NCBI GenBank assembly: GCA_963807605.1
Contig: CAWECG010000004.1
Coordinates: 599,090-663,089 of the forward strand
Reading direction: 5' to 3'
Length of the DNA stretch: 64,000 bases
Source: Candidatus Bathyarchaeota archaeon
GTDB taxonomy: Archaea; Thermoproteota; Bathyarchaeia; 40CM-2-53-6; RBG-13-38-9
The notes beneath the pieces were generated by a model, which was not told where the DNA came from, did no database searches, and saw only the letters and a list, made by a program, of their open reading frames with translations. Of this stretch, positions 19,798 through 49,621 are shown one piece after another. The position numbers and the translations under genes are program-made. Each line of letters begins with the position of its first letter. The stretch's first letter is position 1.

Positions 19798-21196
19798 TTG
19801 ACACTCCACTGTCTAAAGATAGGGGATTCTAGCTTCTATCATGTTCATCGGTTGATGGGTCATAGCGTTGTTGCGCTCCCACCTCATTCCATCCCACTTT
19901 AGAAGGTTAGGGCGTGTCATCACCCTGTTAATGACTCCCGCAGGGAGCTTAACACCCTGAGTGAGTCCTATATTTACAACACCAATAGCATCCCTATGAG
20001 CCTCCAATCCACAGTTAAGGCATTTGAAGAGTCTACCTTTTCTCTCAATACTTTCTGACCCACATCTCACGCATCTGCTTGAAGTCTTGTATTCACTGAC
20101 TTCTTTGACCCGTATCCCATACTCCTGCGCTGTATGTTCCAGTCTTTGAATAATATAGTTGAAACTCCAGAAGTTGTGGATCATTGAATTGCTCTTCTTG
20201 CCTTTGCTATTGTCATCTCTGATGCCTGTTAGGTCTCCTATCACAATCTTTGAAACACCGAGATCATATCAGATCTCTTACCATGACCCTTATCATGGTG
20301 TTGATGGCCTGCCTGAATCTCCGTTGCCTTATACTGTAGAGTTTGCTGAGTCGCTTCGAACTCTTCTTGCCGTTGACTGCTTCAAGCATGCTCTGGCAAT
20401 CCGCTATTCTCCTATTCCAGTACCACCAATCTGCTAGGAGGTTTCTTCCATTGTATGCTATTGGTTGCCTCCATCCTTCAAGCCAGATGGTGAACAGGTT
20501 GATTACGCCGGGGTCGATGTAGCATGTCTTGGAGCCTTTCGGCTTAAACAATGGCTTTACCTTTACAGCCTGAAAGACACGCCACTTCCCATCAACCTCA
20601 TCATAGATGACCTCGGCCTTTCCCTGCTTGCCACCCCATCTTGTCTTGCCTCGGATGGGTATCTTCAACTTCTTTGGTAGCTTCATCACTTCATCCTTCA
20701 GGCTGTAGATGTCGTTTCTCAGAACCATCATCAGCCTGTAGTTTCCATGTCGCTTCCAGTATCCAGGCATACACACCTTCTCCATGTTTGGCGGAAGTTT
20801 GCCTTCTCGCTCCAGCTGCTTTAATGCAAAGAAGCCCCTCCATGACTCGTTGCTCTTCCTGATGATCTGTTGAGATGTCGCCGAATCGATTAGTGGTGTG
20901 TACTTTCGATAGAGGTCTTTGCATCTCCAATCTAGGGGTTGATAGTTCATGTATGCCTGTCTTTTGCGGTAGGTTGCCTCATTCCAAAGTTTGGCACAGT
21001 TGGTAGCTTTATCCCTCAGCATCCTCTCTTGCTCCACCGTTGGATCAAGGATGAAGGTGTTAGTTCTCCGCATGAAACTACCAGCATTATCATTGAAACA
21101 CCAAGACATTTAAGCCCCAAACGTCTCACTCTTGTCGCAATTCATCCCACCCCTGAAGGAGTGGGCTTTCTTGCTAGTTCAATGTAAGATAGTCCG
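19798..21196 (-). mobile_element. family-A IS200/IS605 tnpB element, copy A1 (gene disrupted)
   Basis: Right-end terminus TTGACACTCC at 19798. Left end ...GGGCTTTCTTGCTAGTTCAAT ending at 21196 with GTAA (TTAC) flank. Confidence 0.7.
19813..21109 (-). pseudogene. tnpB: tnpB family A, frameshifted (pieces 20264..21109 and 19813..20244)
   Basis: The two ORF pieces align to the N-terminal and C-terminal halves of the intact 415-419-aa copies. Confidence 0.7.
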
Positions 21197-21215
21197 ACAT
21201 GTAGGCTGACTGGCT

Positions 21216-21494
21216 ATGTCGGAACCCGAGATAACCACTGTAAGCAAGAAAGGGCAGGTCGTAATACCGAGGGGGATAAGGGAGAAGATGAAGCTGGTGC
21301 CGAAGACAAGACTTCTTGTATACGATTACGATGACACCTTGATTCTCAAGAAACTCATCATTCCGGACGTCGAGATCGAGATGAAGGCCTTGTGGAAAGA
21401 GATCGATAAGAGAATAGACAAGAAGCACAGACCCACCCAGAGAGAGGTAGATGAGGAGATACACGCCTACAGGAAAGAGAAGAAAGCTGAGTGA
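21216..21494 (+). CDS. AbrB/SpoVT/MazE-family antitoxin
   Basis: Swapped-hairpin motif KKGQVVIPRGIREKM. Stop overlaps the downstream PIN gene start. Confidence 0.6.
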   Translation: MSEPEITTVSKKGQVVIPRGIREKMKLVPKTRLLVYDYDDTLILKKLIIPDVEIEMKALWKEIDKRIDKKHRPTQREVDEEIHAYRKEKKAE

Positions 21495-21931
21495 GCATGC
21501 TCAGAGCGGTGCTGGACACAAATGTCTTAGTGTCGAGTCTATTAGCCCTCGGAAAGCCGAGAGAGCTCCTGACGAGAATTCTTAGGAGAGAAATGGCTCT
21601 CGTGATCTCGAAAGAGATCCTGAACGAGTTCATGAGAGTTATGAGAAGAAAGAGATTCTCAGAGTATGCTACAGAAGAGCAGGTTAGGAGATTTGTTGAA
21701 AACGTCAAGAAATCCGCTGAGCTTGTGATGTTGAAAAACGATCTTAAAGTGATCGATGAAGATCCGAAAGACGATATCGTCATAAACACGGCATTAGATG
21801 GAAGTGCTGACCTCATAATCTCAGAAGATCATCATCTGCTCAGTCTCAGAGAATTCAAAGATATCAAGATCGTATCCGTAGACGAAGCTTTACGCATACT
21901 CAAGAAGGGCAGCCGAGCATGCAAGCCTTAG
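21491..21931 (+). CDS. PIN-domain toxin (type II TA)
   Basis: VLDTNVLVSSLL N-terminal PIN motif with downstream acidic residues (EDPKDD, SED). Confidence 0.6.
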   Translation: MSMLRAVLDTNVLVSSLLALGKPRELLTRILRREMALVISKEILNEFMRVMRRKRFSEYATEEQVRRFVENVKKSAELVMLKNDLKVIDEDPKDDIVINTALDGSADLIISEDHHLLSLREFKDIKIVSVDEALRILKKGSRACKP

Positions 21932-21953
21932 TTCCACATTTACATTGAACTAG

Positions 21954-23310
21954 CAAGAAAGCCCACTCCTTCAGGGGTGGGATGAATTGCGACCAGAGTG
22001 AGACGTTTGGGGCTTAAATGTCTGGTGTTTCAATGATAATGCTGGTAGTTTCATGCGGAGAACTAACACCTTCATCCTTGCCCCAACAATGGAGCAAGAA
22101 AGAACACAGGGATAGAGCTACCAACTGTGCTAAACTTTGGAACGAGGCAACCTACCGTAGAAGACAGGCATACATGAACTATCAACCGATAGATTGGGAG
22201 TGCAAAGACCTCTATGAAAAGTATACACCGCTAATCGATTCAGCGACATCTCAACAGATCATCAGAAAGAGCAACGAATCATGGAGGAGCTTCTTTGCCC
22301 TAAAGAAGATGGAGCGAGAAGGCAGACTGCCACTAAATATTGAGAAAGTATGTACGCCAGGGTTCTGGAAAAAAGATGGAAAATACAGGCTGATGATGGT
22401 TCTGAGAAACGACATCTACAGCCTGAAGAATGGAACGATGAAGATATCCATCCGAGGCAAACCCAGATGGGGTGGCAAGCAGGGAAAAGCCGAGGTCATC
22501 TATGATGAGGCTGATGGGAAGTGGCGTGTCTTTCAGGCAGTAAAGGTAAAGCCATTGTTTAAGCCGAAAGGCTCCAAGACATGCTACATCGACCCCGGCG
22601 TAATCAACCTGTTCACCATCTGGCTTGAAGGATGGAGGCAACCAATAGCATGCAATGGAAGAAATCTACTCTCTGATTGGCGGTACTGGAATGAAAGAAT
22701 AGCAAGTTGCCAGAGCACTCTTGAAACAATCAATGGTAAGAAAAACTCAAAGCAGCTAAGCAGATTCTACAGGATGAGACAACGGAGATTCCGACAGGCC
22801 ATCAACACTATGATAAGAAGCGTGGCCAGAGACCTCTATGATCTCGGTGTTTCAAAGATTATGATAGGAGATCTAACGGGCATAAGAGAGAACAATGGAG
22901 AGAATAGTCACAAGGTCAACTCAATGATTCATAACTTTTGGAGCTTCAACTACATTATTCAAAGACTAAAGTGTACAGCGCAGGAATATGGCATAAGAGT
23001 GAAAGAAGTCAGCGAATACAAAACTTCAAGCAGATGCATAAGATGCAGCTCAGAAAACATTGAGAGAAAAGGCAGACTCTTCAAGTGTCTAGAATGTGGA
23101 TTGGAGGCTCATAGGGATGCTATTGGTGTTGTAAATATAGGACTCACTCAGGGGGTTAAGCTCCCTGCGGGAGTGATTAACAGGGCGATGACACGCCCTA
23201 ACCTTCTAAAGTGGGATGGAATGAGGTGGGAGCGCAACAACGCTATGACCCATCAACCGATGAACATGATAGAAGCTAGAATCCCCTGTCTTTAGGCAGG
23301 GGAGTGTCAA
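21954..23310 (+). mobile_element. family-A tnpB element, copy A2
   Basis: TTAC at 21950-21953 followed by left end ATTGAACTAGCAAGAAAGCCCACTCC. Right end ...GGCAGGGGAGTGTCAA ends at 23310. Confidence 0.7.
22018..23295 (+). CDS. tnpB: TnpB family A; N-terminal ~35 residues in a shifted frame relative to other copies
   Basis: From RATNCAKLWNEATY onward it is collinear with the other copies. The canonical MRRTNTFIL start (atgcggagaac at 22053) is out of frame because of small indels. Confidence 0.7.
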   Translation: MSGVSMIMLVVSCGELTPSSLPQQWSKKEHRDRATNCAKLWNEATYRRRQAYMNYQPIDWECKDLYEKYTPLIDSATSQQIIRKSNESWRSFFALKKMEREGRLPLNIEKVCTPGFWKKDGKYRLMMVLRNDIYSLKNGTMKISIRGKPRWGGKQGKAEVIYDEADGKWRVFQAVKVKPLFKPKGSKTCYIDPGVINLFTIWLEGWRQPIACNGRNLLSDWRYWNERIASCQSTLETINGKKNSKQLSRFYRMRQRRFRQAINTMIRSVARDLYDLGVSKIMIGDLTGIRENNGENSHKVNSMIHNFWSFNYIIQRLKCTAQEYGIRVKEVSEYKTSSRCIRCSSENIERKGRLFKCLECGLEAHRDAIGVVNIGLTQGVKLPAGVINRAMTRPNLLKWDGMRWERNNAMTHQPMNMIEARIPCL

Positions 23311-23330
23311 AGGTTTTACTCTTCAAGGAT
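23150..23330 (+). ncRNA. predicted omegaRNA (right-end RNA) of copy A2, including ~16-20 nt guide after GAGTGTCAA
   Basis: By analogy with characterised TnpB systems, the omegaRNA derives from the 3' end of tnpB plus the right end. The conserved terminus here is ATAGAAGCTAGAATCCCCTGTCTTTAGGCAGGGGAGTGTCAA. Not independently verified. Confidence 0.3.
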
Positions 23331-23533
23331 CAGATGCAGATCCTGTTCGCGACGTCAGCCGATTCATGAAGAAACCTCATACCGAACGTATCACATCTAA
23401 TTCATCAAACTCCCAATATTCACCCCTGCGATCTCCAATGCGGCCTTAGCATCTTGTAGGTGTCATAGAAAGAGGAGCTTCTTTCCATACTCATTCATCG
23501 GTGGCTATTGGACTTTGATCACAAGTACTGTAG

Positions 23534-24490
23534 ATGGACACCTCCTGTAGACTACCTCACAGACCTCAAACCGACCAACTATTTTTCAATCAGGTCTACA
23601 GTACTGAGATCTTCGAACGTCCAATCGACCTATGGTGGAATTTAATAGGGGCATGGTTTCGATCTTTTGGAGGCTTTTGTCTTTCAAGCATGCACTTCAA
23701 GGGGATCTTGACTTCAATGGATGAATCATACGCACTTGAGGCTGAGTCGGTCTCGAAGTCCTTCGGCACCGTGAAGGCTGTTGACAGCGTAGATCTACAT
23801 ATCCGTAGAGGCGAAGTCTATGGGCTGCTTGGGCCGAATGGCTCTGGTAAATCCACCTTGATGAAGATGAGTCTAGGACTGTTGAAACCTGATGCCGGCT
23901 CAGTTAAGGTTTATGGAATCGATGTTCAGGAGGATCCTCTGCGGGCTAAACAAATCACTGGTTACGTGCCCGAATCTCCTCGCCTTTACGACTTCCTGAC
24001 AGCCCTTGAATATCTAGACTTTGTCGCAGACATTCGCCAGATGAACTCTCAAGTCAAAGTAGAGCGGGTGAACGAGTTTCTCAGGGCGTTCGAACTTGAA
24101 GGACGGGAGAATGAGATGCTCAGCGGTTACTCGCAGGGGATGAGGCAAAAGGTAGTGATAACCGCCGCGTTACTTCACAGACCCAAACTGTTGATCTTGG
24201 ATGAACCACTGAACGGACTGGACCCGAGATCTGCTCGAATAGTCAAGGATCTGATCTATAAACTTGCGAAGGAAGGAGTCACAGCAGTATTCAGCACCCA
24301 CATCTTAGAGATAGCTGAGGCCGTATGCGACCGCATAGCGATAATGTTCAGGGGAAAGGTGCTCGCTGAAGGCACGCCGACTGAGCTTCGCAAGCAGGCG
24401 GGTATGCCGGGCTCAACCTTGGAGGAACTCTTCCTGAAACTAACAGGGACAGGAGACGTAAGAGAGATAGTTGAGGCTTTGCTGAAGTGA
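23534..24490 (+). CDS. ABC transporter ATP-binding protein
   Basis: Walker A GPNGSGKST, signature YSQGMRQKV, Walker B LILDEP. True start probably an internal Met near 23717. Confidence 0.75.
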   Translation: MDTSCRLPHRPQTDQLFFNQVYSTEIFERPIDLWWNLIGAWFRSFGGFCLSSMHFKGILTSMDESYALEAESVSKSFGTVKAVDSVDLHIRRGEVYGLLGPNGSGKSTLMKMSLGLLKPDAGSVKVYGIDVQEDPLRAKQITGYVPESPRLYDFLTALEYLDFVADIRQMNSQVKVERVNEFLRAFELEGRENEMLSGYSQGMRQKVVITAALLHRPKLLILDEPLNGLDPRSARIVKDLIYKLAKEGVTAVFSTHILEIAEAVCDRIAIMFRGKVLAEGTPTELRKQAGMPGSTLEELFLKLTGTGDVREIVEALLK

Positions 24491-26118: not shown

Positions 26119-26302
26119 TTGCAGAGTTATCCGAATAGTCATCGGGCTTGTTGACATGAAAAGGAAGATAGATACAATTGAGAGGAGAATACGGTGAGAT
26201 CGTCAAAGAACAGCCTGTATATTGCGAAGGCTTCAGCCTTTTTCGGCGCCTTCAAAAAGGAATGGAAGATAACTGGTTCAATGAGTCAACCCTTAACTGG
26301 AC

Positions 26303-26722
26303 TTGATGCGAATGGCAATTGAGCCAAGCGCGATCCGTAACAAAATTGATAGCGACAGGTTTGCAAAATTCTTGGGGATTCAGCTGCTTGAGTTGAAGGA
26401 GGGGTATAGCAAGCTCTCTATGACTCTCACGGACAAGATGCTCAATTTTCATAATGTGGGGCACGGTGGTGCGATATTCGCCCTTGCGGACGCGGCATTC
26501 GCGGCTGCAGCCAACTCGCACGGCCAAAAGGCACTAGCTCTCTGCATGAACATCAACTACTGCTCGCCGGCGAAAGAGGGGATGAAGCTTATAGCAGAGG
26601 GCTTCGAGGAGAACCTCGGCAGAAGGACAGGCCTCTATCGAATGATTGTGAGAAGCGACGAGGGGCAACTAATTGCGACATCTTATGGCACTGTCTACCG
26701 TAAGCCAGAAGAATCTATCTAG
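26303..26722 (+). CDS. PaaI/hotdog-fold thioesterase
   Basis: HNVGHGGAIFALADAAFAAAAN hotdog thioesterase signature. Confidence 0.65.
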   Translation: MMRMAIEPSAIRNKIDSDRFAKFLGIQLLELKEGYSKLSMTLTDKMLNFHNVGHGGAIFALADAAFAAAANSHGQKALALCMNINYCSPAKEGMKLIAEGFEENLGRRTGLYRMIVRSDEGQLIATSYGTVYRKPEESI

Positions 26723-26778
26723 GCAACTCAAGAAGGCAACAGCGCTGGTGAAGAGATCTTTGGCACAATCGCTTAGGT

Positions 26779-28176: not shown

Positions 28177-29055
28177 TTGTCCCTTTCAAAAAGGTCGTAT
28201 CTGTTTGCAATATTGGTGATATTTGCTTCATCTTACTCTCAGTACTGGGTCAGGGGTCTGGGTGCGATCTCGAGCTTCTTCGTTGTTTACGGGATCCCAC
28301 TGATTATCACCGGCATTATCTTTGGTTCTGAAATTAATCAAAGAGCCTTCAAGAACACGTACAGGGCTTTGAAGTTTGGACTGGCCTCCTTTGGAGGCTT
28401 TACAATTCTGGGCACTCTTGCATCCGTTGCTATCTTCTATATGTTATTGATTCTTGATCCTTCATCTGTGAATCTCTTGAATCGACCTAACCCGGTGCTT
28501 AATATACCGCCTGGGCTTGCCTGGGTAATGATAGGGGTCTCATTCATTATTGTTGGACCGGCTGAGGAGTATATCTTCAGGGGTTTCGTTTACGGCGGCA
28601 TGCTCAACCTTTTCAAGGAACGGCATTGGCTAAGCCTCGCCTTTGCATCATCAATAATATTTGCAATTGTGCATCTGTATTATGCATTAGTGTATAGTAT
28701 TGCTTCGCTAGTCCAATTTGCTGACCTTGTAACCTTCGGCATGGCGATGGCGATCACATACTACCTCTCAGACGGAAATCTTGTCGTCCCCGCACTGATC
28801 CACGGAGCATACGACGCCACAGGATTCCTCGGTGTAGCAGTATCATCAGACCTAGGACTCTTCTTCAGAGGAATGTTGGTTTTGACTGGAATAATCGTCG
28901 GCTTGGGCCTCTTCTTCCAGAATATCCTCAGAAGGAGAGAACAAACCCGAGACATTTCAACCTATACAGGCATGATCTCATCACACTACCAAGTCAGCTA
29001 CCCACGTCTAAAGGCGTGGGCTTGGAATGGTGATACCAACGCAAGAGTTGACTAG
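28177..29055 (+). CDS. CPBP (CAAX protease/Abi) family intramembrane metalloprotease; 3' end runs into the IS left end
   Basis: EEYIFRGF (motif 1), FAIVHLYY (motif 2), IHGAYD (motif 3). The last ~20 codons overlap the IS hairpin CCCACGTCTAAAGGCGTGGG. Confidence 0.65.
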   Translation: MSLSKRSYLFAILVIFASSYSQYWVRGLGAISSFFVVYGIPLIITGIIFGSEINQRAFKNTYRALKFGLASFGGFTILGTLASVAIFYMLLILDPSSVNLLNRPNPVLNIPPGLAWVMIGVSFIIVGPAEEYIFRGFVYGGMLNLFKERHWLSLAFASSIIFAIVHLYYALVYSIASLVQFADLVTFGMAMAITYYLSDGNLVVPALIHGAYDATGFLGVAVSSDLGLFFRGMLVLTGIIVGLGLFFQNILRRREQTRDISTYTGMISSHYQVSYPRLKAWAWNGDTNARVD

Positions 29056-29270
29056 CCTAAGTCCAACTGGGACTACGCCTTCGGAGCTAAAAGCACGTAC
29101 AGACGCCGCCCTAATCTGTACCTCTGCGGCAGAACCACTGAATGCCACAACCAGTAGCAATACTGGTTTAAGCTCTGTTGGCTTTGGCGAAGGGAAACTC
29201 GACTCTTGGCGGAGAGGGGCCGCAATCGGTAACATCCCCGTCACCTCCTCTGACGGAACACTTCTAATGC
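29015..29270 (+). ncRNA. predicted IsrB omegaRNA region (upstream of and overlapping the isrB 5' end)
   Basis: IscB/IsrB omegaRNAs are encoded directly upstream of the ORF starting at the left end. This ~250-nt segment has no convincing ORF; the leading 80 codons of the tracked 417-aa ORF are not IscB-like. Confidence 0.3.
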
Positions 29271-39115: not shown

Positions 39116-39802
39116 CTAGTAGGGAGATTGCCACATCAAACTTCGATGAGGCACGTATTCGCCTTCCCTACGCCATTGGAAGATCTGTTTTGCCTGTGCT
39201 AGATCATGAGTCTTCACTCCATCGAACAAGCTTCTGTAGTATTCGTGGAGATATTCCACCTTCTCGAAATGAATCCTCAGCGGCGACGCGACCGCGGTCA
39301 AGGACGATGTTCTTGACACCAGATCCTGTTGCAGTCAACCTTTCTAGGAGGGTCACGTGTGGAGGAAAAATGGGTGACGAATACCTTACCAAGAGAGGCA
39401 ATCAGCTCCGCCAGACCATTATAGACCTCTCCTGCTGGCTTCAGCCAGAGCGAGAATGCACGGTGGGCTGCCCTCAGAGTCTCTTGCCAAACGCACGTTG
39501 GGTTCTCTCGTACTCTTCTGTCAACCCTATATCCCAAACATGCTGCAACCTAAATCCGTATACCACTTCTTTCGTGCAGAACCACTCAATGAAATTGCCC
39601 GGTTCATCACCTCGCCCTCCTTGACGCAGAATTCATCTGTTCTTTGGAGGGTCGGAAACGGTAGTATGTAGATGCATGCTCCAATCACCTGACCAGTCGG
39701 GTGCAGAGGCTTTTCCTGGAATCCTACGATTCGCATCTCGTGGTCGAGGGTCACTATGGAGCCTCTTCTTGCTTGGTCTGAATCTTCGGCATCAAAGAAC
39801 AT
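39116..39802 (-). pseudogene. sugar-phosphate nucleotidyltransferase fragment, 5'-truncated by the TnpB insertion and frameshifted
   Basis: VGFQEKPLHPTGQVIGACIYIL matches the NDP-sugar pyrophosphorylase EKP...GiY motif. The N-terminal G-rich loop is absent because the family-A right end abuts at 39809. Three consecutive frames are needed to follow the gene. Confidence 0.4.
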
Positions 39803-39808
39803 TATGTC

Positions 39809-41180
39809 TTGACACTCCCCTGCCTAAAGATAGGGGATTCTAGCTTCTATCATGTTCATTGGTTGGTGGGTCACTGCCCTTCTAGGCTGCCACCTCATTC
39901 CATCCCATTTTAGAAGGTTAGGGTGCGTCATCACCCTGATAGCTGTTCCTTCACGTTGAAGGTTTGCCATTTTCAAGACTCCAATAGCATCCCTGTGAAC
40001 TTCCATCCCACACTCCAAGCATTTGAAGAGTCTGCCTTTTCTCTCAATGTTTTCTGAGCTGCATCTTATGCATCTGCTTGAAGTCTTGTATTCGCTGACT
40101 TCTTTTACTCTTATGCCGTATTCTTGTGCCGTACACTTTAGTCTTTGAATGATGTATTTGAAGCTCCAGAAGTTATGGATCATAGCGTTGCTCTTCTTTC
40201 CTTTATCGTTGCCGTCTCTGATGCCTGTTAGGTCTCCTATCACAATCTTTGAAACACCGAGATCATAGAGGTCTCTTACCATGACTCTTATCATGGTGTT
40301 GATGGCCTGCCGGAATCTCCGTTGCCTTATCCTGTACAGTCTATTGAGTTGCTTTGAACTTTTCTTGCCGTTGATTGTTTCAAGTATGCTCTGGCAGTCT
40401 GCTATTCTATCGACCCAGTACCACCAATCAGAGAGTAGATTTCTCCCACTGTATGCTATTGGTTGTTTCCATCCTTCAAGCCAGATGGTGAACAGGTTGA
40501 TTACACCGGGGTCGATGTAGCATGTCTTGGAGCCTTTCGGCTTGAATAATGGCCTAACCTTTACGGCCTGAAAGACACACCACTTTCCAGCCAAATCATC
40601 ATAGATGACCTCGGCTTTCCCCTGTCTTCCGCTCCATTTTGGCTTGCCTCGGATGGGCATCTTCAACTTCTTTGGTAGTCTCATCACTCCATCCTTTACA
40701 CTATAGCAGTCGTTCCTCAGAACCATCATCAGCCTGTATTTCCCATCTCTCTTCCAGTATCCTGGCATACACACCTTCTCCATGTTTGGCGGAAGTTTGC
40801 CTTCTCGCTCCAGCTGCTTTAATGCGAAGAAGCTTCTCCATGACTCGTTGCCCTTCCTGATGATCTGTTGAGATGTCGCCGAATCGATTAGTGGCGTATA
40901 CTTTCGATAGAGGTCTTTGCACTCCCAATTTAGGGGTTGATAGTTCATGTATGCCTGTCTTTTGCGGTATGTCGTCTCATTCCAAAGTTTGGCACAGTTG
41001 GTAGCTTTATCCCTCAGTATCCTCTCTTGCTCCACCATTGGATCAAGGATGAAGGTGTTGGTTCTACGCATGAAACTACCAGTATTATTATTGAAATACC
41101 AGACATTTAAGCCCCAAACGTCTCACTCTGGTCGCAATTCACCCCACCCCTGAAGGAGTGGGCTTTCTTGCTAGTTCAAT
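39809..41180 (-). mobile_element. family-A tnpB element, copy A3
   Basis: Right-end terminus TTGACACTCCCCTGCC at 39809. Left end ...GCTAGTTCAAT ends at 41180 with GTAA flank (TTAC on the gene strand). Confidence 0.75.
39824..41071 (-). CDS. tnpB: TnpB-like RNA-guided endonuclease, family A (intact)
   Basis: MRRTNTFILDP..., RuvC-like DxxxE...D residues, zinc finger CIRCSS...CLECG. Confidence 0.85.
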   Translation of the reverse strand: MRRTNTFILDPMVEQERILRDKATNCAKLWNETTYRKRQAYMNYQPLNWECKDLYRKYTPLIDSATSQQIIRKGNESWRSFFALKQLEREGKLPPNMEKVCMPGYWKRDGKYRLMMVLRNDCYSVKDGVMRLPKKLKMPIRGKPKWSGRQGKAEVIYDDLAGKWCVFQAVKVRPLFKPKGSKTCYIDPGVINLFTIWLEGWKQPIAYSGRNLLSDWWYWVDRIADCQSILETINGKKSSKQLNRLYRIRQRRFRQAINTMIRVMVRDLYDLGVSKIVIGDLTGIRDGNDKGKKSNAMIHNFWSFKYIIQRLKCTAQEYGIRVKEVSEYKTSSRCIRCSSENIERKGRLFKCLECGMEVHRDAIGVLKMANLQREGTAIRVMTHPNLLKWDGMRWQPRRAVTHQPMNMIEARIPYL

Positions 41181-41530: not shown

Positions 41531-41547
41531 GTTGCCTACTGATCTTC

Positions 41548-41569
41548 TAAATACACATATGTGTATTTA
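41548..41569. promoter_or_regulatory. perfect 22-bp palindrome TAAATACACATATGTGTATTTA, putative operator
   Basis: Located 18 bp upstream of the antitoxin start codon, on the template side. Fits TA autoregulation. Confidence 0.45.
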
Positions 41570-41875
41570 ATATTAGTTGGATCAAACAATATTCCAACCT
41601 GAGTATCAAATCCAAGCTCAGGTTCCGCTTTCTTTCTTCACATTTCTGAATTACCCTGTTAGCGCGCGCTATGAATGTCATATAGATTGCTTTATGTGAT
41701 TTACTGGTTCTAGGTTCAATAGTACTGCTCGTAAATTACGTAAGATAAGGTATGCTGGGAAATCATGGAGAGTAGAGAAAAAAGTGGATGTGTTAGGCTT
41801 CGTCTTTTTCTAATGACTACTACTGTAGATAAGGCTGCGACTAGTAGAGCGCGCTTTGTGGTACTGCCTACAGAG

Positions 41876-43261: not shown

Positions 43262-43780
43262 ACTGAAGCCGGCTATTATTATTGGTGGTGAGGCAGCGTT
43301 ATTTAGACTTATTATTCATAGTGATATTGTGATATCGACATTCCCAACATTGAGTGTAGCATTTGATAGAGAAATGCATTCAAGAAACCATCAATATTGA
43401 GTGTATTCAATCGAGTTCTTGAAACTCTGCCATCTATCATTCGTGGCTAGAGGAAACTAGAGTCGATGTTGAAATGGAGTGACAAGCAGCTCAACAAGAA
43501 ACAGCACGAAGCACTTGAAGCAATCTCGCTCTTTCACGTAGAGGCACCACAAGGTGCGCGCTTGAAGCCACTATGTCTGCAATATTAGAACTTCAACGTA
43601 TTTACGTCCTTCAATCATGAGGTTTGCGTGTTCAACTTCGTGTCCCGACTGTTAACAGCTGGAAGAATGTCCCACGAACGTAACAGAACCCTTTTCAGAA
43701 CACCGATTTTTCCACATATTAAAGTAAGGAAGAAAGTCTTAAGTAAGACCCTAAAATTTTGTATTAATGCGGTGGGTGTA

Positions 43781-44041
43781 ATGACCAAAGTAGTGAGTGT
43801 TACTCAAAAGGGCCAGGCAACCATTCCTAAAGCCCTGAGAGACAAGTTCAGAGTTAAAGGAAAAGTTCTCGTGGTTGAGACGTCGGAAGGCATACTCTTT
43901 AAACCCCTGCCACGTCCTGAAGACGACTTCGGCTCATTAAAGCAGCACTTCAAAGGAGAGACGGCGCGAAAGGTTCTGGACGAAGCCAGGAGTAGAGACG
44001 AGCTGCGGGAGAAGAGGCTGCTGGAGAAAATCAGAGATTGA
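43781..44041 (+). CDS. vapB: AbrB/SpoVT-family VapB-like antitoxin
   Basis: From the internal Met: MTKVVSVTQKGQATIPKALRDKF. Stop overlaps the PIN gene start. Confidence 0.6.
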   Translation: MTKVVSVTQKGQATIPKALRDKFRVKGKVLVVETSEGILFKPLPRPEDDFGSLKQHFKGETARKVLDEARSRDELREKRLLEKIRD

Positions 44042-44433
44042 ACATTGTCTTCGACACTGAAGCTCTCTTAGCCTTCTATCTGGGTGAACCCAGAGGCAGA
44101 GAAGTTGAGAAATACCTTGCAAAGGTGATGGAGGGAGAACTGAAGGGTTACCTGAACATACTCACCCTGTCTGAGCTCTACTATATCCTGTATAGGAACA
44201 GCCCTGCATTAGCTGAGGAGAAGGAGCAGAACCTCCGCAGCTATGGTTTGGATATAGTTCCAATCGATGACGATGGCCTCTGGAAAGAAGCTGCAAAGAT
44301 GAAGGGAAAGCATGCTCTCTCACTAGCAGATGCCTTCGCAGCGGCAACTGCAAAGATAAAGAAGGCAAGCCTCCTAACAGGCAGGGATAAAGAGTTTCAT
44401 AGTCTGGACATCCCCATAGAACGAATAGACTAA
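44038..44433 (+). CDS. vapC: PIN-domain VapC-like toxin
   Basis: MNIVFDTEALLAFYL..., LSLADAFAAATA, TGRDKEF. Confidence 0.65.
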   Translation: MNIVFDTEALLAFYLGEPRGREVEKYLAKVMEGELKGYLNILTLSELYYILYRNSPALAEEKEQNLRSYGLDIVPIDDDGLWKEAAKMKGKHALSLADAFAAATAKIKKASLLTGRDKEFHSLDIPIERID

Positions 44434-44662
44434 CGGACGAAGAGATTTCAACAGACACAGATCATTTATCGAAGAAGATCCCCCAGAGATAGGATTAGCC
44501 AATGTCCAACAAGGTTCTGAAACCCTACATTCAATAATGATGCTTAGAAAATTCGCGGCCCTCAGACTCTGACAATTCTCGTCAACAACCCTAGGCGCTG
44601 CGAAGATAAGGATTCTTTTGCGTGCGCTGGTCTAAACACGATCTGTGCTAGTTGTTACTTAG

Positions 44663-46035
44663 TTGACACTCACCCGCCTAAAGGCGGGGTGATTCTAGCT
44701 TCTATACTGTTCACCGGTCTAGTGTTCACTGGCCTGTTAGCCTGCCACTTCATGCCATCCCACTTTAGAAGGTCAGGGTGCGTCATCACCCTTACAGCTG
44801 TTCCTTCACGTTGAAGGTTTGCCATGTTCAAGACTCCAATAGCATCCCTGTGAACTTCCATCCCACACTCCAAGCATTTGAAGAGTCTGCCTTTCCTCTC
44901 AATGTTTTCTGAGCTGCATCTTATGCATCTGCTTGAAGTCTTGTATTCGCTGACTTCTTTCACTCTTATGCCGTATTCTTGTGCCGTACACTTTAGTCTT
45001 TGAATGATGTATTTGAAGCTCCAGAAGTTATGGATCATAGCGTTGCTCTTCTTTCCTTTATCGTTGCCGTCTCTGATGCCTGTTAGGTCTCCTATCACAA
45101 TCTTTGAAACACCGAGATCATATAGATCTCTTACCATGACTCTTATCATGGTGTTGATGGCCTGCCGGAATCTCCGTTGCCTTATCCTGTACAGTCTACT
45201 GAGGTGCTTCGAACTTTTCTTGCCGTTGATTGTTTCAAGTATGCTCTGGCAATTTGCTATTCTATCAACCCAGTACCACCAATCTGCTAGGAGGTTTCTC
45301 CCGCTGAATGCTATTGGTTGCCTCCATCCTTCAAGCCAGATAGTGAACAGGTTGATAATGCCGATGTCGATGTAGCAGGTCTTGGAGCCTTGCGGCTTGA
45401 AGATTGGCTTTATTTTAACAGCCTGAAAGACACGCCACTTCTTATCTATGTTATCATAGATGACTTCGGCTTTCCCCTGTCTTCCGCTCCATTTTGGCTT
45501 GCCTCGGATGGGTATTTTCATCTTCTTTGGTAGCTTCATCACTCCATCCTTCAGGCTGTAGATGTCGTTTCTCAGAACCATCATCAGCCTGTACTTTCCA
45601 TCTCGCTTCCAGTATCCAGGCATACACACCTTCTCAATATTTAGTGGCAGTCTGCCTTCTCGCTCCAGCTGCTTTAATGCGAAGAAGCTCCTCCATGACT
45701 CGTTGTTCTTCCTGATGATCTGTTGAGATGTCGCCGAATCGATTAGTGGTGTATACCTTTGATAGAGGTCTTTGCACTCCCAGTCCAGGGGTTGATAGTT
45801 CATGTATGCCTGTCTTTTGTGGTAGGTTGCCTCATTCCAAAGTTTAGCACAGTTGGTAGCTCTTTCTCGCAGTATCCTCTCTTGCCCCACTGTTGGAGCA
45901 AGGATGAAGGTGTTAGTTCTCCGCATGAAACTACCAGTATTATTATTGAAAAACCAGACATTTAAGCCCCAAACGTCTCACTCTGGTCGCAATTCATCCC
46001 ACCCCTGAAGGGGTGGGCTTTCTTGCTAGTTCAAT
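44663..46035 (-). mobile_element. family-A tnpB element, copy A4
   Basis: Right-end terminus TTGACACTCACCCGCC at 44663. Left end ends TTCAAT at 46035 followed by GTAA. Confidence 0.75.
44670..45926 (-). CDS. tnpB: TnpB-like RNA-guided endonuclease, family A (intact)
   Basis: 418 aa, collinear with copies A3 and A5. Confidence 0.85.
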   Translation of the reverse strand: MRRTNTFILAPTVGQERILRERATNCAKLWNEATYHKRQAYMNYQPLDWECKDLYQRYTPLIDSATSQQIIRKNNESWRSFFALKQLEREGRLPLNIEKVCMPGYWKRDGKYRLMMVLRNDIYSLKDGVMKLPKKMKIPIRGKPKWSGRQGKAEVIYDNIDKKWRVFQAVKIKPIFKPQGSKTCYIDIGIINLFTIWLEGWRQPIAFSGRNLLADWWYWVDRIANCQSILETINGKKSSKHLSRLYRIRQRRFRQAINTMIRVMVRDLYDLGVSKIVIGDLTGIRDGNDKGKKSNAMIHNFWSFKYIIQRLKCTAQEYGIRVKEVSEYKTSSRCIRCSSENIERKGRLFKCLECGMEVHRDAIGVLNMANLQREGTAVRVMTHPDLLKWDGMKWQANRPVNTRPVNSIEARITPPLGG

Positions 46036-46124
46036 GTAATCGATACCAAGTTGATGGAGAACTTTCAAGAACCGCTCAGCGCTGATCTTGAGCCTAACCA
46101 GTTCAGGCAAACGTGTGGACAATC

Positions 46125-46415
46125 TTAGGACTGCCTGGCTAGTTTACCGAGTTCCAGAACTCTCTCCAACGAAGTATGAAAGCTCGGTCCTGATCTCTGA
46201 GCCGCTAAACTCTCATCCTTAAGTTTCTTGACCTTCTTCTCATCCAACGTATTAAGCCACACAAAGAAGTTGACTTTTCTCCGAACCTCAACGCTATGCA
46301 CAGGCCCAAGATATTGTTTGTGAACATTTCTTGTCTTCGGATCGTATGAGCAAAGATAATAGTACTGAGCTCCACCAGAACCTCGCCTTTCCACTCTAAC
46401 GAAGACCAACATCAA
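46125..46415 (-). CDS. hypothetical protein
   Basis: 96-aa ORF. No recognisable motif. Confidence 0.3.
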   Translation of the reverse strand: MMLVFVRVERRGSGGAQYYYLCSYDPKTRNVHKQYLGPVHSVEVRRKVNFFVWLNTLDEKKVKKLKDESLAAQRSGPSFHTSLERVLELGKLARQS

Positions 46416-46647
46416 TCCTCTTTAGACTGTTTCTGTTTTGATACGTGCGTACGTGTTGTCTATGTACAATTAATGTGCATATAATCTCGATTATTGAGAT
46501 CATAATTTCCGAAGAATGCGGTACTTCTATTGTACATCAGTGGCATCTGTACCCATCAAATACTATATAAGTACAATATAGCATAGGTACTGTACGCTTG
46601 CTCGTGCAGTATATTGAAAGCCAACTAGACATCCCAGAGGGGAACTG

Positions 46648-47376
46648 ATGGATCTCTTATTTCATATGCTGCTTCCTGCGATGTTGGCGATGATCGCTGG
46701 AATAGATAAGCGAAAAGCCCTCGCGATCATGCCTTTCGCGATACTCCCTGATCTTGATGCATTGCTCTTCGCTCACCACTTGATCTTCCATTCCCTGATT
46801 GTGATATCTCTCGCCGCCTTTGCTGGGCTGCTCTGCTGCCGTTTGGTGACGCCCGGCCATTTCGGAACAGGGGTCCTAGCGTCGCTGTATGTGTACAGTC
46901 ATATCGTGCTTGACCTGTTTTCGAATGGCGACGTTGGATTATTCTGGCCTTTGAACAATATCGGCTATTCGATGTCTATCAACCTCACTGTCACTCATCA
47001 GAGTCTCTGGCCAACATTCGGCCTTGAGATGGTTCTGGGTCAGCACCTCCTCCCGAACTCAAGCGCAATTGTTGATGCGACCGCAATAGGTGGTGGAGGG
47101 GTTGCTCTATTACTCCTTCTCTTGCTGACCATGACTTGGGGGTGGAGCAGCCTCGAACAGCGTTTCGAGCTTCTCAAAGCGATACCCACCTTACAGAGAT
47201 CAATTGTCACGCTACGCCACACTTTTGATCTCTCAGGCTACAGAGGTTTGAGATTGTTGGGTACTAACCAATCTTTCGGAATGCAGAAGTTAGCGCCTGT
47301 GAAACAAAGGGATAACACCCTTTTTTTGAATAATTCAACAGGCGGCAATAGGGAGCCTGAGGCTAGTCTAGGCTAG
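46648..47376 (+). CDS. membrane-bound metal-dependent hydrolase (YdjM/DUF457-like)
   Basis: N-terminal HMLLPAMLA...LPDLDALLFAHHLIFHS His-rich membrane helices. Confidence 0.5.
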   Translation: MDLLFHMLLPAMLAMIAGIDKRKALAIMPFAILPDLDALLFAHHLIFHSLIVISLAAFAGLLCCRLVTPGHFGTGVLASLYVYSHIVLDLFSNGDVGLFWPLNNIGYSMSINLTVTHQSLWPTFGLEMVLGQHLLPNSSAIVDATAIGGGGVALLLLLLLTMTWGWSSLEQRFELLKAIPTLQRSIVTLRHTFDLSGYRGLRLLGTNQSFGMQKLAPVKQRDNTLFLNNSTGGNREPEASLG

Positions 47377-47433
47377 CCTTGAGGGGGGCTAGCCAGGCCA
47401 ATAGGTTACTTGCGGGATGCATTGGCAAGATTT

Positions 47434-47622
47434 CTATTTGGTTGATCTGAGTTCATCCAATCTTCTTCTTACTGCATCTGCTATGAAGTCGCCTCGTGAA
47501 CGGTAGCCATGCGTTCTGGACTCCAATAGTTTGTCTATTTTGTCTGCCAACTCTTTTGGGAGGTTGACATAAGTCCAGCCTTCACGTTTCGTGTCTATCT
47601 TCCTGGACACCCGTGTCACCAT
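47434..47622 (-). CDS. ribbon-helix-helix (CopG/Arc-like) DNA-binding protein
   Basis: WTYVNLPKELADKIDKL...GDFIADAVRRRLDEL RHH pattern. The start is taken at an internal Met. Confidence 0.45.
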   Translation of the reverse strand: MVTRVSRKIDTKREGWTYVNLPKELADKIDKLLESRTHGYRSRGDFIADAVRRRLDELRSTK

Positions 47623-47673
47623 GCTTACTAAACCCCTACTACACGAACTGTATATAAAACCACTACCGCTACA

Positions 47674-47874
47674 GTGAATCGCCAGAAAACCCTTGAAGAG
47701 ATTTGCATGGTGGATGATATTCAAGAGAGATTAATCAGAGCTGCAATACCGAAGGCCCTCGTTGAAAGGGTTGAACGAGAAGCTTTGGACCAAGGGTCCT
47801 ATCCGAGCCTTTCAACTTTCATCGCGGATGCTGTCCGAAGAAGGCTTGAACAGCTAGAAACGAAGACCGCCTGA
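47674..47874 (+). CDS. ribbon-helix-helix DNA-binding protein (paralog of the divergent neighbour)
   Basis: IRAAIPKALVERVEREALDQGSYPSLSTFIADAVRRRLEQLE. Shares the FIADAVRRRL helix with 47434..47622. Confidence 0.5.
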   Translation: MNRQKTLEEICMVDDIQERLIRAAIPKALVERVEREALDQGSYPSLSTFIADAVRRRLEQLETKTA

Positions 47875-48245
47875 AATCCAAGACTTTACAAGCGAGTTCT
47901 TTCAGCCAGTTCATTCCACATATTTAACTAACTGGTTTTTGTCGGTCTCCTGGTGTCACCAGACTCCATGAACCTTTCACATGGGCGCGACCACTTACCC
48001 CAGAAGGCAACTGAGAACACTTCAACATATGGACGAGCTGGCGTTTCCTAGCAGGTCTGAAGACTCTACCCTACGCCTGATCCTTTCCTCAAAACTTTTT
48101 TTCTATTACAGGCTTTTGTAGCGTGAATAAGAAACGAGCTGGCTCATCTCATCCGGTCAAGTGTTTCCTTTGCTGCCTCAAGAAATTCGTTGGCTTTTCT
48201 GAGGGCATAGTCAGCTTCCTTTGCACTGCTCTTTGTTTCAAGGCC

Positions 48246-49621
48246 TTGACACTCCCATGCCTAAAGACAGGGGATTCTAACTTCTATCATGTTCATCGGT
48301 TGATGGGTCATAGCGTTGTTGCGCTCCCACCTCATTCCATCCCACTTTAGAAGGTTAGGGCGTGTCATCGCCCTGTTAATGACTCCCGCAGGAAGCTTAA
48401 CCCCCTGAGTGAGTCCTATATTTACAACACCAATAGCATCCCTATAAGCCTCCAATCCACATTCTAGACACTTGAAGAGTCTGCCTTTCCTCTCAATGTT
48501 CTCTGAGCCGCATCTTACGCATTTGCTCGATGTTTTGTATTCGCTAACTTCTCTCACTCTTATGCCGTACTCTTGCGCTGTATACTTTAGTCTTTGAATA
48601 ATGTAGTTGAAGCTCCAGAAGTTGTGGATTATAGCGTTGCTCTTCTTTCCATTATCATTGTTCTCTCTTATGCCTGTCAGATCTCCTATCATAATCTTTG
48701 AAACACCGAGATCATAGAGGTCTCTTGCCATGCTTCTTATCATGGTGTTGATTGCTTGTCGGAATCTCCGTTGCCTTATCCTGTAGAGTTTGTTGAGTCG
48801 CTTCGAACTCTTCTTGTCGTTTATTGTTTCAAGTTTGCTCTGGCATTCTGCTATTCTATCGACCCAGTACCACCAATCTGCTAGGAGGTTTCTTCCACTG
48901 TATGCTATTGGTTGCCTCCACCCTTCAAGCCAGATGGTGAACAGGTTAATTACACCAGGGTCGATGTAGCATGTCTTGGAGCCTTGCGGCTTGAATAATG
49001 GCTTTGTTTTAATTGCCTGAAAGACACGCCACTTCCCATCAACCTCATCATAGATGACCTCGCCCCTACCCTGCTTACCATTCCATCTAGGTTTACCTTT
49101 GAAGGGTATCCTCAGTCCTTTAGGTAGTTTCATCACTCCATCCTTTACACTGTAGCAGTCTTTTCTCAGAACCATCATCAATTTGTATTTTCCATTTCTC
49201 TTCCAGTATCCCGGCATGCATACCTTCTCAATATTTGGTGGCAGTCTGCCTTCTCGCTCTAGCTGCTTTAATGCGAAGAAGCCCCTCCATGACTCGTTGC
49301 ATTTCCTGAGTATTTGTTGTGTTGTCGCTGAATCGATTAGTGGTGTGTACTTTTGATAGAGGTCTTTGCACTCCCAATCTAGGGGTTGATAGTTTACGTA
49401 TGCCTGTCTTTTGCGGTAGGTTGCCTCATTCCAAAGTTTGGCACAGTTAGTAGCTCTATCCCTCAGTATCCTCTCTTGCTCCACTGTTGGAGCAAGGATG
49501 AAGGTGTTAGTTCTCCGCATGAAACTACCAGTATTATTATTGAAAAACCAGACATTTAAGCCCCAAACGTCTCACTCTGGTCGCAATTCATCCCACCCCT
49601 GAAGGAGTGGGCTTTCTTGCT
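48246..49621 (-). mobile_element. family-A tnpB element, copy A5
   Basis: Right-end terminus TTGACACTCCCATGCC at 48246. Left end ends TTCAAT at 49621 followed by GTAA. Confidence 0.75.
48261..49520 (-). CDS. tnpB: TnpB-like RNA-guided endonuclease, family A (intact)
   Basis: 419 aa, collinear with the other copies, zinc finger CVRCGS...CLECG. Confidence 0.85.
   Translation of the reverse strand: MRRTNTFILAPTVEQERILRDRATNCAKLWNEATYRKRQAYVNYQPLDWECKDLYQKYTPLIDSATTQQILRKCNESWRGFFALKQLEREGRLPPNIEKVCMPGYWKRNGKYKLMMVLRKDCYSVKDGVMKLPKGLRIPFKGKPRWNGKQGRGEVIYDEVDGKWRVFQAIKTKPLFKPQGSKTCYIDPGVINLFTIWLEGWRQPIAYSGRNLLADWWYWVDRIAECQSKLETINDKKSSKRLNKLYRIRQRRFRQAINTMIRSMARDLYDLGVSKIMIGDLTGIRENNDNGKKSNAIIHNFWSFNYIIQRLKYTAQEYGIRVREVSEYKTSSKCVRCGSENIERKGRLFKCLECGLEAYRDAIGVVNIGLTQGVKLPAGVINRAMTRPNLLKWDGMRWERNNAMTHQPMNMIEVRIPCL

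What the first reader, a model, noticed from the sequence alone, without database searches (positions are those of the whole stretch)
19798..49621. Five-copy family-A TnpB swarm; the TTAC before every left end predicts the TAM/target
Copies A1-A5 share a left end, ATTGAACTAGCAAGAAAGCCCAC(T/C)CC with a CCCAC...GTGGG hairpin. They share a right end ending ...TAGAAT(C/T)CCC...GGCAGGGGAGTGTCAA. The unrelated flanks are all preceded by TTAC (cacatTTAC, ctatcTTAC, caagcTTAC, atcgaTTAC, ctctcTTAC). This is the IS608 behaviour of inserting 3' of TTAC. In characterised TnpB systems the TAM equals the transposon target motif. The 16-20 nt after GAGTGTCAA in each copy would be the omegaRNA guide. Near-identical copies suggest recent activity although no tnpA is present.
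Basis: partly seen in the sequence, partly recalled or inferred. Interest (0 to 1): 0.55.

Follow-up and report, generated by a model that had tools for sequence, protein, structure and literature searches.

The report
TnpB-only IS608-like transposons in Bathyarchaeia
Five diverged copies of a small archaeal jumping gene that carries only an RNA-guided nuclease (TnpB) all sit right after the four bases TTAC, exactly as the well-studied bacterial element IS608 does, so this is a clear but ordinary new example of a known kind of element.

Summary
Five elements of 1367-1386 nt share a left end, a right end ending GAGTGTCAA, and a TTAC immediately 5' of the left end.

TTAC also precedes 37 of 38 distinct related left ends in Bathyarchaeia MAGs and metagenomes. 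The one exception reads CTAC.

The ends reproduce IS608 tetranucleotide for tetranucleotide: TTAC / 18 nt ending AAAG / hairpin / AT on the left, and GAAT / hairpin / AGTG-TCAA on the right. A second co-resident family has TTAT with AAAA, and TCAC with GAAG, which is the matched change expected from guide-cleavage site pairing.

The protein is a genuine TnpB with the relocated RuvC-II glutamate (G279, E327) also seen in Fanzors. The last 165-177 nt form a covarying omegaRNA-like structure, and miniature derivatives retain it.

Two claims fail. The copies are not near-identical: they are 85-91% identical, with dS 0.26-0.56 and dN/dS about 0.2. A1 and A2 carry frameshifts, so only A3-A5 are intact.

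No Y1 tnpA lies in the window. A related autonomous tnpA-tnpB element with the same right-end architecture exists elsewhere.

TAM = TTAC and the flank-derived guides are well-founded inferences, not tested. Verdict: a new member of a known kind.

The parts
19798..21183 (-). Copy A1, 1386 nt. The tnpB is split by a +1 frameshift near codon 281. ORF pieces are 20264-21109 and 19813-20244. TTAC flank at 21184-21187 on the element strand.
21944..23310 (+). Copy A2, 1367 nt. TTAC at 21940-21943. The longest ORF, 22018-23295, starts at an upstream out-of-frame ATG because a 2-nt deletion near codon 19 shifts the family reading frame. It also has an 18-nt in-frame deletion. Probably defective.
39809..41180 (-). 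Copy A3, 1372 nt. Intact tnpB 39824-41071 (415 aa).
44663..46035 (-). Copy A4, 1373 nt. Intact tnpB 44670-45926 (418 aa). Its RuvC-I motif is DIG. Both end hairpins carry compensatory changes.
48246..49629 (-). Copy A5, 1384 nt. Intact tnpB 48261-49520 (419 aa), with D187, G279, E327, D361 and C334/C337/C351/C354.
49520..49629 (-). Left end of A5, representative of all copies. It reads TTAC | ATTGAACTAGCAAG-AAAG | CCCACTCC TTCA GGGGTGGG | AT..., followed by a conserved TTAAAT about 36 nt before the ATG. The 110 nt are 95-99% identical between copies.
48246..48422 (-). omegaRNA-like module plus right end of A5. The equivalent stretches are A1 19798-19973, A2 23134-23310, A3 39809-39973 and A4 44663-44828. 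There are seven covarying helices. The last is the right-end hairpin, preceded by GAAT and followed by AGTG-TCAA. The tnpB stop codon TAG lies in the loop of that hairpin.
48226..48245 (-). Predicted 20-nt guide of A5, GGCCTTGAAACAAAGAGCAG. The others are A1 19778-19797 TTTCCTACCTAAATGCCTTA, A2 23311-23330 AGGTTTTACTCTTCAAGGAT, A3 39789-39808 GACATAATGTTCTTTGATGC and A4 44643-44662 CTAAGTAACAACTAGCACAG.
   Evidence: inferred by analogy with ISDra2 (PMC8612924)
8244..8288 (-). 45-nt left-end/right-end fusion remnant. It reads TTAC | AGAAAAATAGCAAGAAAG CCCGAGC TTCG GCTGGGTG AGTGTCAA |. This is a sixth TTAC-flanked footprint of the family.

Best explanation
These are five old copies of a non-autonomous (tnpB-only, IS1341-style) IS200/IS605-family element in a Bathyarchaeia genome, plus one 45-nt remnant.

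Mobilisation (inferred). A Y1 HUH transposase supplied in trans would move the top strand by single-strand 'peel and paste'. It would recognise the subterminal hairpins. The tetranucleotide AAAG, just 5' of the left hairpin, pairs with TTAC and positions cleavage and insertion 3' of TTAC. GAAT, 5' of the right hairpin, pairs with TCAA and sets the right cut. Excision would leave TTAC joined to the right flank.

The protein (shown). Each intact copy (A3, A4, A5) encodes a TnpB with a relocated RuvC-II glutamate: D187, G279 at the canonical position, E327 and D361.

The RNA (structure shown, expression inferred). The last ~165-177 nt of the element fold into an omegaRNA scaffold whose 3' extension into the flank is the guide.

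Function (inferred). The TnpB-omegaRNA complex would cut the empty donor joint, TTAC plus ~16-20 nt of right flank, so that homologous repair restores the element. The predicted TAM is therefore 5'-TTAC.

Shown here: copies, boundaries, the TTAC rule, end architecture, protein family and catalytic residues, RNA covariation, and selection on the protein. Inferred: the trans TnpA, the TAM, guide use and homing.
For: Copies, boundaries and TTAC:
- Five copies with sharp boundaries and TTAC at every left end.
- TTAC precedes 7/7 left ends in MAG JAPKYM01 and 33/33 metagenome left ends, while the next three bases vary: ATT, TTT, AAA, ACT.
- Overall, 37 of 38 distinct genuine left ends have TTAC 18 or 19 nt from the hairpin foot. 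These include relatives at 50-53% protein identity (L012, L051).

End architecture:
- The IS608 values CL TTAC, GL AAAG, CR TCAA and GR GAAT, and the AT 3' of the left hairpin that forms base triplets, are taken from PMC3201880 and PMC5934647. The same bases sit at the same places here.
- Co-resident family B (36029-37352 and 55111-56434) has TTAT with AAAA on the left, and TCAC with GAAG on the right. These are matched changes in guide and cleavage site.
- Both end hairpins covary. The right-end helix has 5 of 8 pairs with changes on both sides.

The protein:
- Pfam and NCBIfam matches lie above the curated cut-offs.
- The AlphaFold model has pLDDT 80.9. Its best PDB matches are Cas12f, ISDra2 TnpB and Fanzor2, with E 1e-18 to 1e-15.
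- D187, G279, E327, D361 and the C4 zinc finger are invariant in 116 homologs. E327 aligns with the catalytic E467 of ApmFz2 (PMC11832414, PMC10691335).
- dN/dS is 0.17-0.28.

The omegaRNA module:
- 36 pairs, 94.3% of cells paired, 15 pairs with changes on both sides. No shuffle of 500 reached this, and slid controls gave 38-52%.
- Miniature derivatives of 389, 391 and 548 nt keep the left end plus this module, and all are TTAC-flanked.

A candidate partner:
- A related autonomous element, L061, encodes a Y1 TnpA plus a relocated-glutamate TnpB. Its right end reads GAAT | hairpin | AGTG-TCAA.

Functional model:
- The rule that the TAM equals the transposon target, and the homing model, come from PMC8612924. 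A TnpB with a TTAC TAM has been characterised (PMC12781874).
Against: - No empty site was found, so retention of TTAC at the donor joint is inferred, not seen.
- No Y1 tnpA is in the window, and the rest of the genome is not available.
- The copies are old (dS 0.26-0.56) and two of five are frameshifted, so current mobility is unproven.
- One relative (L001) has CTAC instead of TTAC.
- No expression or cleavage data exist. No relocated-glutamate TnpB on a Y1-type element appears to have been tested for its TAM in the papers read.
- Rfam has no model that matches the proposed omegaRNA.
Confidence: 0.8

Rival explanations
1. TTAC is the conserved first tetranucleotide of the element itself, not a target or flank motif. 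It would then leave with the element, would not mark the donor joint, and need not be the TAM.
For: From occupied sites alone, an invariant flank tetranucleotide cannot be told apart from a terminal one. No empty site was recovered.
Against: - The three bases after TTAC vary (ATT, TTT, AAA, ACT, AGA, CAT) and the spacing to the hairpin is 18 or 19 nt, while TTAC stays fixed.
- The architecture is identical to IS608, where cleavage 3' of TTAC and retention of TTAC in the donor were shown biochemically (PMC3201880).
- Family B changes TTAC to TTAT together with AAAG to AAAA.
Confidence: 0.07
2. The copies are immobilised or domesticated TnpB paralogs kept for a host function such as RNA-guided regulation or defence. 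They would no longer be transposons, and the conserved ends would serve only as promoter and RNA scaffold.
For: - Deep divergence between copies with dN/dS of about 0.2, and no cis transposase.
- Archaeal tnpB genes are reported to be numerous but to show little recent mobility (PMC10691335).
Against: - The catalytic triad and zinc finger are intact.
- Both transposase-recognition ends, with their guide and cleavage tetranucleotides, are better conserved than synonymous sites.
- There are about 37 different insertion sites across related genomes.
- Miniature derivatives with both ends exist.
- There is no conserved neighbouring gene.
Confidence: 0.1
3. The elements are moved by the IS607-type serine recombinase encoded next to A1 (18958-19569), not by a Y1 transposase.
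For: A serine recombinase plus TnpB pair lies 229 bp from the right end of A1. Relocated-glutamate TnpBs related to Fanzors are described as IS607-associated (PMC10711439).
Against: - The family A ends have the Y1-type hallmarks: subterminal hairpins, asymmetric ends, TTAC and TCAA with IS608 guide tetranucleotides, and no duplication.
- The neighbouring TnpB is a different, weakly scoring family.
- A related element pairs this right-end type with a Y1 TnpA.
Confidence: 0.03

Closest known systems
IS608 of Helicobacter pylori (IS200/IS605 family)
   Same: - Insertion 3' of TTAC, and a right end terminating in TCAA.
- Guide tetranucleotides AAAG and GAAT immediately 5' of the left and right subterminal hairpins.
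- AT 3' of the left hairpin.
- No inverted repeats and no target duplication.
   Different: - There is no tnpA in the element.
- TTAC lies 18 nt, not 19 nt, from the hairpin foot, and the right cut is 8 nt rather than 10 nt from the foot.
- The host is an archaeon.
- The TnpB has the relocated RuvC-II glutamate.
ISDra2 TnpB with its right-end (omega) RNA
   Same: - The RNA scaffold overlaps the 3' end of tnpB and the right end.
- The guide is read from the flank.
- The predicted TAM equals the transposon target.
- The same homing logic applies (PMC8612924).
- The fold is similar.
   Different: - Predicted TAM is TTAC rather than TTGAT.
- Sequence similarity is very low (E 6.5e-4).
- ISDra2 has the canonical glutamate position, and this family does not.
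- Activity has not been tested here.
RuvC-II-rearranged (alternative-glutamate) TnpBs, including the RIIr clades, and Fanzor2
   Same: - Glycine at the canonical glutamate position.
- An invariant glutamate six residues before the first CxxC, aligned with E467 of ApmFz2.
- ApmFz2 is the best sequence match among solved structures (PMC10691335, PMC11832414, PMC10711439).
   Different: - It sits on a Y1-type (IS608-like) element in Bathyarchaeia, not on IS607 in cyanobacteria or giant viruses.
- The RuvC-I motif is D[L/M/I]G in 108 of 116 family members. DPG occurs only in a small sub-branch that includes A1, A2, A3 and A5.
IS1341-type tnpB-only elements and palindrome-associated miniature derivatives of IS200/IS605
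   Same: - tnpB is the only gene between IS200/IS605 ends, so the element depends on a trans transposase.
- Short derivatives keep only the ends.
   Different: The miniature derivatives here keep the whole ~165-nt omegaRNA module, and one remnant is a 45-nt single-hairpin fusion of the two ends.

Membership tests
IS200/IS605 (IS608-like) transposon | Asymmetric ends with subterminal imperfect palindromes, no terminal inverted repeats and no target-site duplication | tested here: met
   Left hairpin CCCACyCC TTCA GGGGTGGG and right hairpin CCCCTGTC TTTA GGCAGGGG. Both covary in relatives. The flanks are unrelated and not duplicated.
IS200/IS605 (IS608-like) transposon | Insertion 3' of a fixed short motif, which also serves as the left cleavage site | tested here: met
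   TTAC at 5/5 window copies and at 37/38 distinct left ends overall. Chance is about 1e-13 for the window alone.
IS200/IS605 (IS608-like) transposon | Guide tetranucleotides 5' of each hairpin that specify the cleavage sites | tested here: met
   AAAG/TTAC and GAAT/TCAA are identical to IS608. Family B shows the matched variants AAAA/TTAT and GAAG/TCAC.
IS200/IS605 (IS608-like) transposon | Y1 HUH transposase TnpA encoded in the element | tested here: not met
   No Y1_Tnp match in the elements or in any tested ORF of the window, and no tblastn hit with a Y1 seed. The elements are therefore non-autonomous. A related autonomous element exists at L061.
IS200/IS605 (IS608-like) transposon | Precise excision that leaves the target motif joined to the right flank | tested here: inconclusive
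   No empty site was found among the loci held.
TnpB RNA-guided nuclease | Family profile match over the full length | tested here: met
   NF040570 guided_TnpB scores 141.9 bits (cut-off 100) over residues 6-368. PF01385 and PF07282 match above their cut-offs.
TnpB RNA-guided nuclease | RuvC D-E-D triad and C4 zinc finger | tested here: met
   D187, E327 (alternative position, with G279 at the canonical one), D361, and C334/C337/C351/C354 are invariant in 116 homologs.
TnpB RNA-guided nuclease | TnpB/Cas12f fold | tested here: met
   Model pLDDT 80.9. Foldseek top matches are AsCas12f, ISDra2 TnpB and ApmFz2, with E 3e-18 to 3e-15 and TM 0.5-0.6.
TnpB RNA-guided nuclease | Structured omegaRNA overlapping the 3' end of the gene and ending at the right-end boundary | tested here: met
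   36 pairs, 94.3% paired, 15 pairs with compensatory changes, 0 of 500 shuffles reached this. Miniature derivatives retain the module. Expression was not tested.
TnpB RNA-guided nuclease | RNA-guided, TAM-dependent DNA cleavage | not testable with these tools
   Requires a biochemical or in-cell assay.
pro-Fanzor (Yoon et al. 2023) | Alternative glutamate six residues before the zinc finger | tested here: met
   The regex of PMC10711439 matches 118 of 120 homologs.
pro-Fanzor (Yoon et al. 2023) | DPG motif in RuvC-I as a family trait | tested here: not met
   DPG occurs in 8 of 116 aligned members. The rest have D[L/M/I/V]G, and A4 has DIG.
pro-Fanzor (Yoon et al. 2023) | Association with an IS607 serine recombinase, and cyanobacterial hosts | tested here: not met
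   The ends are Y1-type, the hosts are Bathyarchaeia and other archaeal MAGs, and the related autonomous element carries a Y1 TnpA.

The most novel reading that the evidence does not exclude
The relocated-glutamate (Fanzor-type) RuvC site rides here on an IS608-like single-strand Y1 transposon in TACK archaea. In this sub-branch even the DPG plus alternative-glutamate 'Fanzor fingerprint' is present. That fingerprint would then not be confined to cyanobacterial IS607 pro-Fanzors. The family has also stayed under purifying selection through deep divergence without a cis transposase, which could mean that TnpB-omegaRNA has a maintenance or host role that does not depend on ongoing transposition.
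Probability: 0.15. Interest if true: 0.5.

Novelty: new member of a known kind. Interest (0 to 1): 0.3.

Why it matters
It gives a clean, well-bounded archaeal example in which the transposon target (TTAC), the end architecture and the guide RNA module can all be read from sequence.

That makes a relocated-glutamate TnpB from Bathyarchaeia directly testable, with a predicted TAM, scaffold and guides.

The two co-resident families form a natural experiment. Their matched guide and cleavage-site changes support the IS608 base-pairing rule far outside Helicobacter.

It does not change the current picture of IS200/IS605 or TnpB biology.

Tried and rejected
- Exact-sequence contig look-ups for window proteins and for the closest homolog found nothing. 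The source genome is apparently not in that collection under these gene calls.
- P0114 proved to be one conserved locus seen in many samples, so it gave no information on mobility.
- Joined-flank 'empty site' queries against all held loci and the window gave no spanning match.
- The loci share nothing with the window outside the elements.
- None of the five insertions interrupts a recognisable gene, so no protein-level empty-site test was possible.
- A viral-contig scan for the left end found nothing.
- Rfam at gathering thresholds has no match to the omegaRNA region. It reports only a HEARO RNA elsewhere.
- Cluster look-up gave no organism names.
- The idea that family A is a 'pro-Fanzor' was rejected. 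DPG is a sub-branch trait and the transposon type is wrong.
- Three regex right-end hits and three regex left-end hits were discarded as chance, because the profile searches did not support them.

Full report
**Observation**

The 23-nt left-end motif occurs exactly five times, against none in 100 shuffles. The right-end motif occurs five times with 0-2 mismatches. The pairs define five elements:

- A1 19798-21183(-)
- A2 21944-23310(+)
- A3 39809-41180(-)
- A4 44663-46035(-)
- A5 48246-49629(-)

In a five-way alignment, similarity begins exactly after TTAC and ends exactly at GAGTGTCAA. The flanks are unrelated and carry no duplication. TTAC occurs at 0.0027 per position in the window, so five of five is not chance. 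Its A3 guide lacks the first G, and its end coordinate is 8 nt short.

**What the copies are**

All carry a TnpB gene. Pfam OrfB_IS605 and Cas12f1-like_TNB match. NCBIfam guided_TnpB scores 141.9 bits against a cut-off of 100 over nearly the full length. An AlphaFold model built from a 46-sequence alignment has pLDDT 80.9. It matches AsCas12f, ISDra2 TnpB and mimivirus Fanzor2 with E from 3e-18 to 3e-15.

The copies are not near-identical. They are 85-91% identical overall, with ORFs at 84-92% and the 110-nt left end at 95-99%. dS is 0.26-0.56 and dN/dS is 0.17-0.28.

A1 has a +1 insertion that splits the ORF at about codon 281. A2 has a 2-nt deletion at about codon 19, so its long ORF starts from an out-of-frame upstream ATG. 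A2 also has an 18-nt in-frame deletion. A3, A4 and A5 are intact.

This is an old family kept under purifying selection, with two recent casualties. It is not a recent burst. That fits the published observation that archaea hold many tnpB genes but few recently mobile ones (PMC10691335).

**Host**

The closest TnpB relatives, at 70-88% identity, lie in Bathyarchaeia/Bathyarchaeota MAGs. A housekeeping-type oxidoreductase in the window has its named relatives in Candidatus Bathyarchaeota. The bacterial promoter scan was therefore not used.

**The TTAC rule beyond the window**

- In MAG JAPKYM01, seven further left ends are all preceded by TTAC.
- An exact scan of metagenome contigs used 20 nt of the left end, chosen to exclude both TTAC and the first three element bases. 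It returned 33 loci, all with TTAC at the same distance. The three intervening bases vary: ATT 26, TTT 4, AAA 2, ACT 1.
- Diverged relatives with different left-end sequences (L002, L003, L004, L012, L051) also have TTAC 18 or 19 nt from the hairpin foot. L001 has CTAC.
- After removing repeated sites and three chance regex hits, 37 of 38 distinct left ends follow the rule.

**End architecture**

Published IS608 values are CL TTAC, GL AAAG, CR TCAA and GR GAAT. TTAC lies 19 nt 5' of the left hairpin and TCAA lies 3' of the right hairpin. An A and a T just 3' of the left hairpin complete base triplets (PMC3201880; PMC5934647).

Family A reads:

- Left end: TTAC | 14 nt + AAAG | CCCACyCC TTCA GGGGTGGG | AT...
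- Right end: ...GAAT | CCCCTGTC TTTA GGCAGGGG | AGTG TCAA |

Every specificity element of IS608 is present at the equivalent place.

Profile searches with the family A ends found a second family in the window, B1 at 36029-37352(-) and B2 at 55111-56434(-). Its boundaries read TTAT | ...GAGAAAA | hairpin on the left and GAAG | hairpin | AGGATG TCAC | on the right. On both ends the fourth guide base and the fourth cleavage-site base change together: G/C becomes A/T on the left, and T/A becomes G/C on the right. That is what base-pair recognition predicts. With only two B copies this is supportive, not conclusive.

**Catalytic site**

In the alignment with ApmFz2 (PDB 9b0l), which is the best sequence match among solved structures at E 2.4e-12, three correspondences hold:

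- D187 aligns with D324.
- E327 aligns with the catalytic E467.
- D361 aligns with D501.

The canonical RuvC-II glutamate position is G279. Across 116 homologs, D187, G279, E327, D361 and the four zinc-finger cysteines are invariant.

This is the known relocated-glutamate arrangement, described as the RIIr clades in PMC10691335 and as Ealt in PMC10711439.

A1, A2, A3 and A5 also have DPG in RuvC-I, so they match the published 'Fanzor fingerprint' regex. Only 8 of 116 aligned family members have DPG, and A4 has DIG. The transposon is Y1-type and the hosts are archaeal. The family is therefore not a pro-Fanzor as defined in that paper.

**omegaRNA**

Twenty-four distinct right-end regions were aligned, taken from the window and from relatives down to 50% protein identity. 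RNAalifold and a manually refined structure give seven helices in the last ~165-177 nt.

For the 36 pairs, 94.3% of cells are paired and 15 pairs show changes on both sides. No shuffle of 500 reached this, and slid controls gave 38-52%.

The last helix is the right-end hairpin, and the tnpB stop codon lies in its loop.

Independent support comes from deletion derivatives. Two 389- and 391-nt elements in L050 and a 548-nt element in L028 have lost the ORF but keep the left end and this module. All are flanked by TTAC.

The guide is therefore expected to be the flank immediately 3' of TCAA. The five flanks are unique in the window. In the occupied site they are preceded by TCAA, not TTAC, so self-targeting is avoided.

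**Transposase**

No Y1 transposase is encoded in the elements or in the window.

A degraded Y1 fragment lies in L050. Its full-length relatives (P0121, P0122, PF01797) sit directly upstream of a relocated-glutamate TnpB. In L061 that element ends GAAT | CCAACGATT TCA AATCGTTGG | AGTG TCAA |, the same right-end grammar as family A. A suitable class of trans-acting TnpA therefore exists. Its presence in this genome is not shown.

**Mechanism and limits**

The best-supported account is trans-mobilised single-strand transposition into TTAC, combined with TnpB-omegaRNA homing on the TTAC-flank donor joint. The predicted TAM is 5'-TTAC (PMC8612924). A TTAC-TAM TnpB has already been characterised (PMC12781874).

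Not shown here:

- An empty site.
- The transposase.
- RNA expression.
- Cleavage.

Rival readings are weaker, for the reasons given under the rival explanations. They are that TTAC is part of the element, that these are domesticated paralogs, and that the neighbouring serine recombinase moves them.

**Verdict**

A well-supported, ordinary finding: a new archaeal member of the IS608-like, tnpB-only class. It has a known variant of the TnpB active site. The 'recent activity' claim is wrong, and the assay suggestions need correcting.

Noticed in passing
window 36029-37352(-) and 55111-56434(-): A second IS605-type TnpB family (B1 intact, tnpB 36045-37241; B2 frameshifted), 93% identical to each other. 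Boundaries are TTAT | ...AAAA | hairpin and GAAG | hairpin | AGGATG TCAC |. The guide and cleavage tetranucleotides covary with those of family A.
   Followed up: partly
window 8244-8288(-): A 45-nt single-hairpin fusion of a family A-like left end and right end, flanked by TTAC, in an intergenic gap. It is either a deletion remnant or a minimal element.
   Followed up: partly
window 17699-19569(-): An IS607-type pair: a serine recombinase (MerR-HTH plus Resolvase, 18958-19569) overlapping a divergent TnpB (17699-18961). It lies 229 bp from the right end of A1.
   Followed up: partly
window 28993-30280(+): An IscB-like gene (RRXRR domain, 29027-30280) whose 5' end overlaps a HEARO RNA match (28993-29203, 90.2 bits, gathering score 83).
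   Followed up: partly
window 3227-4474(+): A further TnpB with a canonical glutamate, flanked by CCCACCC...GGGGTGGG hairpins on both sides. It is single-copy, so its boundaries were not determined. The 64-kb window holds eight TnpB genes and one IscB in all.
   Followed up: partly
L050 1034-1422 and 2694-3084; L028 810-1357: Miniature non-coding derivatives of 389, 391 and 548 nt. They keep the left end and the complete omegaRNA/right-end module, and each is flanked by TTAC.
   Followed up: yes
L033 4682-7004; L026, L036, L039: In L033, one copy carries a nested DDE-type IS inside tnpB. In L026, L036 and L039, a left end is truncated in its hairpin and abuts an inverted second left end.
   Followed up: no
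L033 and L042: These two copies share the same right flank (ACGAGCTCATCA...) but have different left flanks. This could be recombination between copies or a chimeric metagenome assembly.
   Followed up: no
window, all IS605-type elements: Seven of the eight family A, family B and miniature elements lie on the minus strand. An orientation bias is expected for elements that insert into the lagging-strand template. The two-sided binomial p is about 0.07.
   Followed up: no
window, left ends, e.g. 49536-49560(-): A conserved GCTTAAATG (TATA-like) about 36 nt upstream of the tnpB ATG, in all copies and in family B. It may be an archaeal promoter, and may partly explain why the left end is more conserved than the ORF.
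   Followed up: no
window 38373-38771, 43628-44433, 49784-50386, 54151-54711: Toxin-antitoxin-type genes (PIN, MazE-like, and nucleotidyltransferases) are interspersed with the elements. This suggests a mobile-element-rich region.
   Followed up: no
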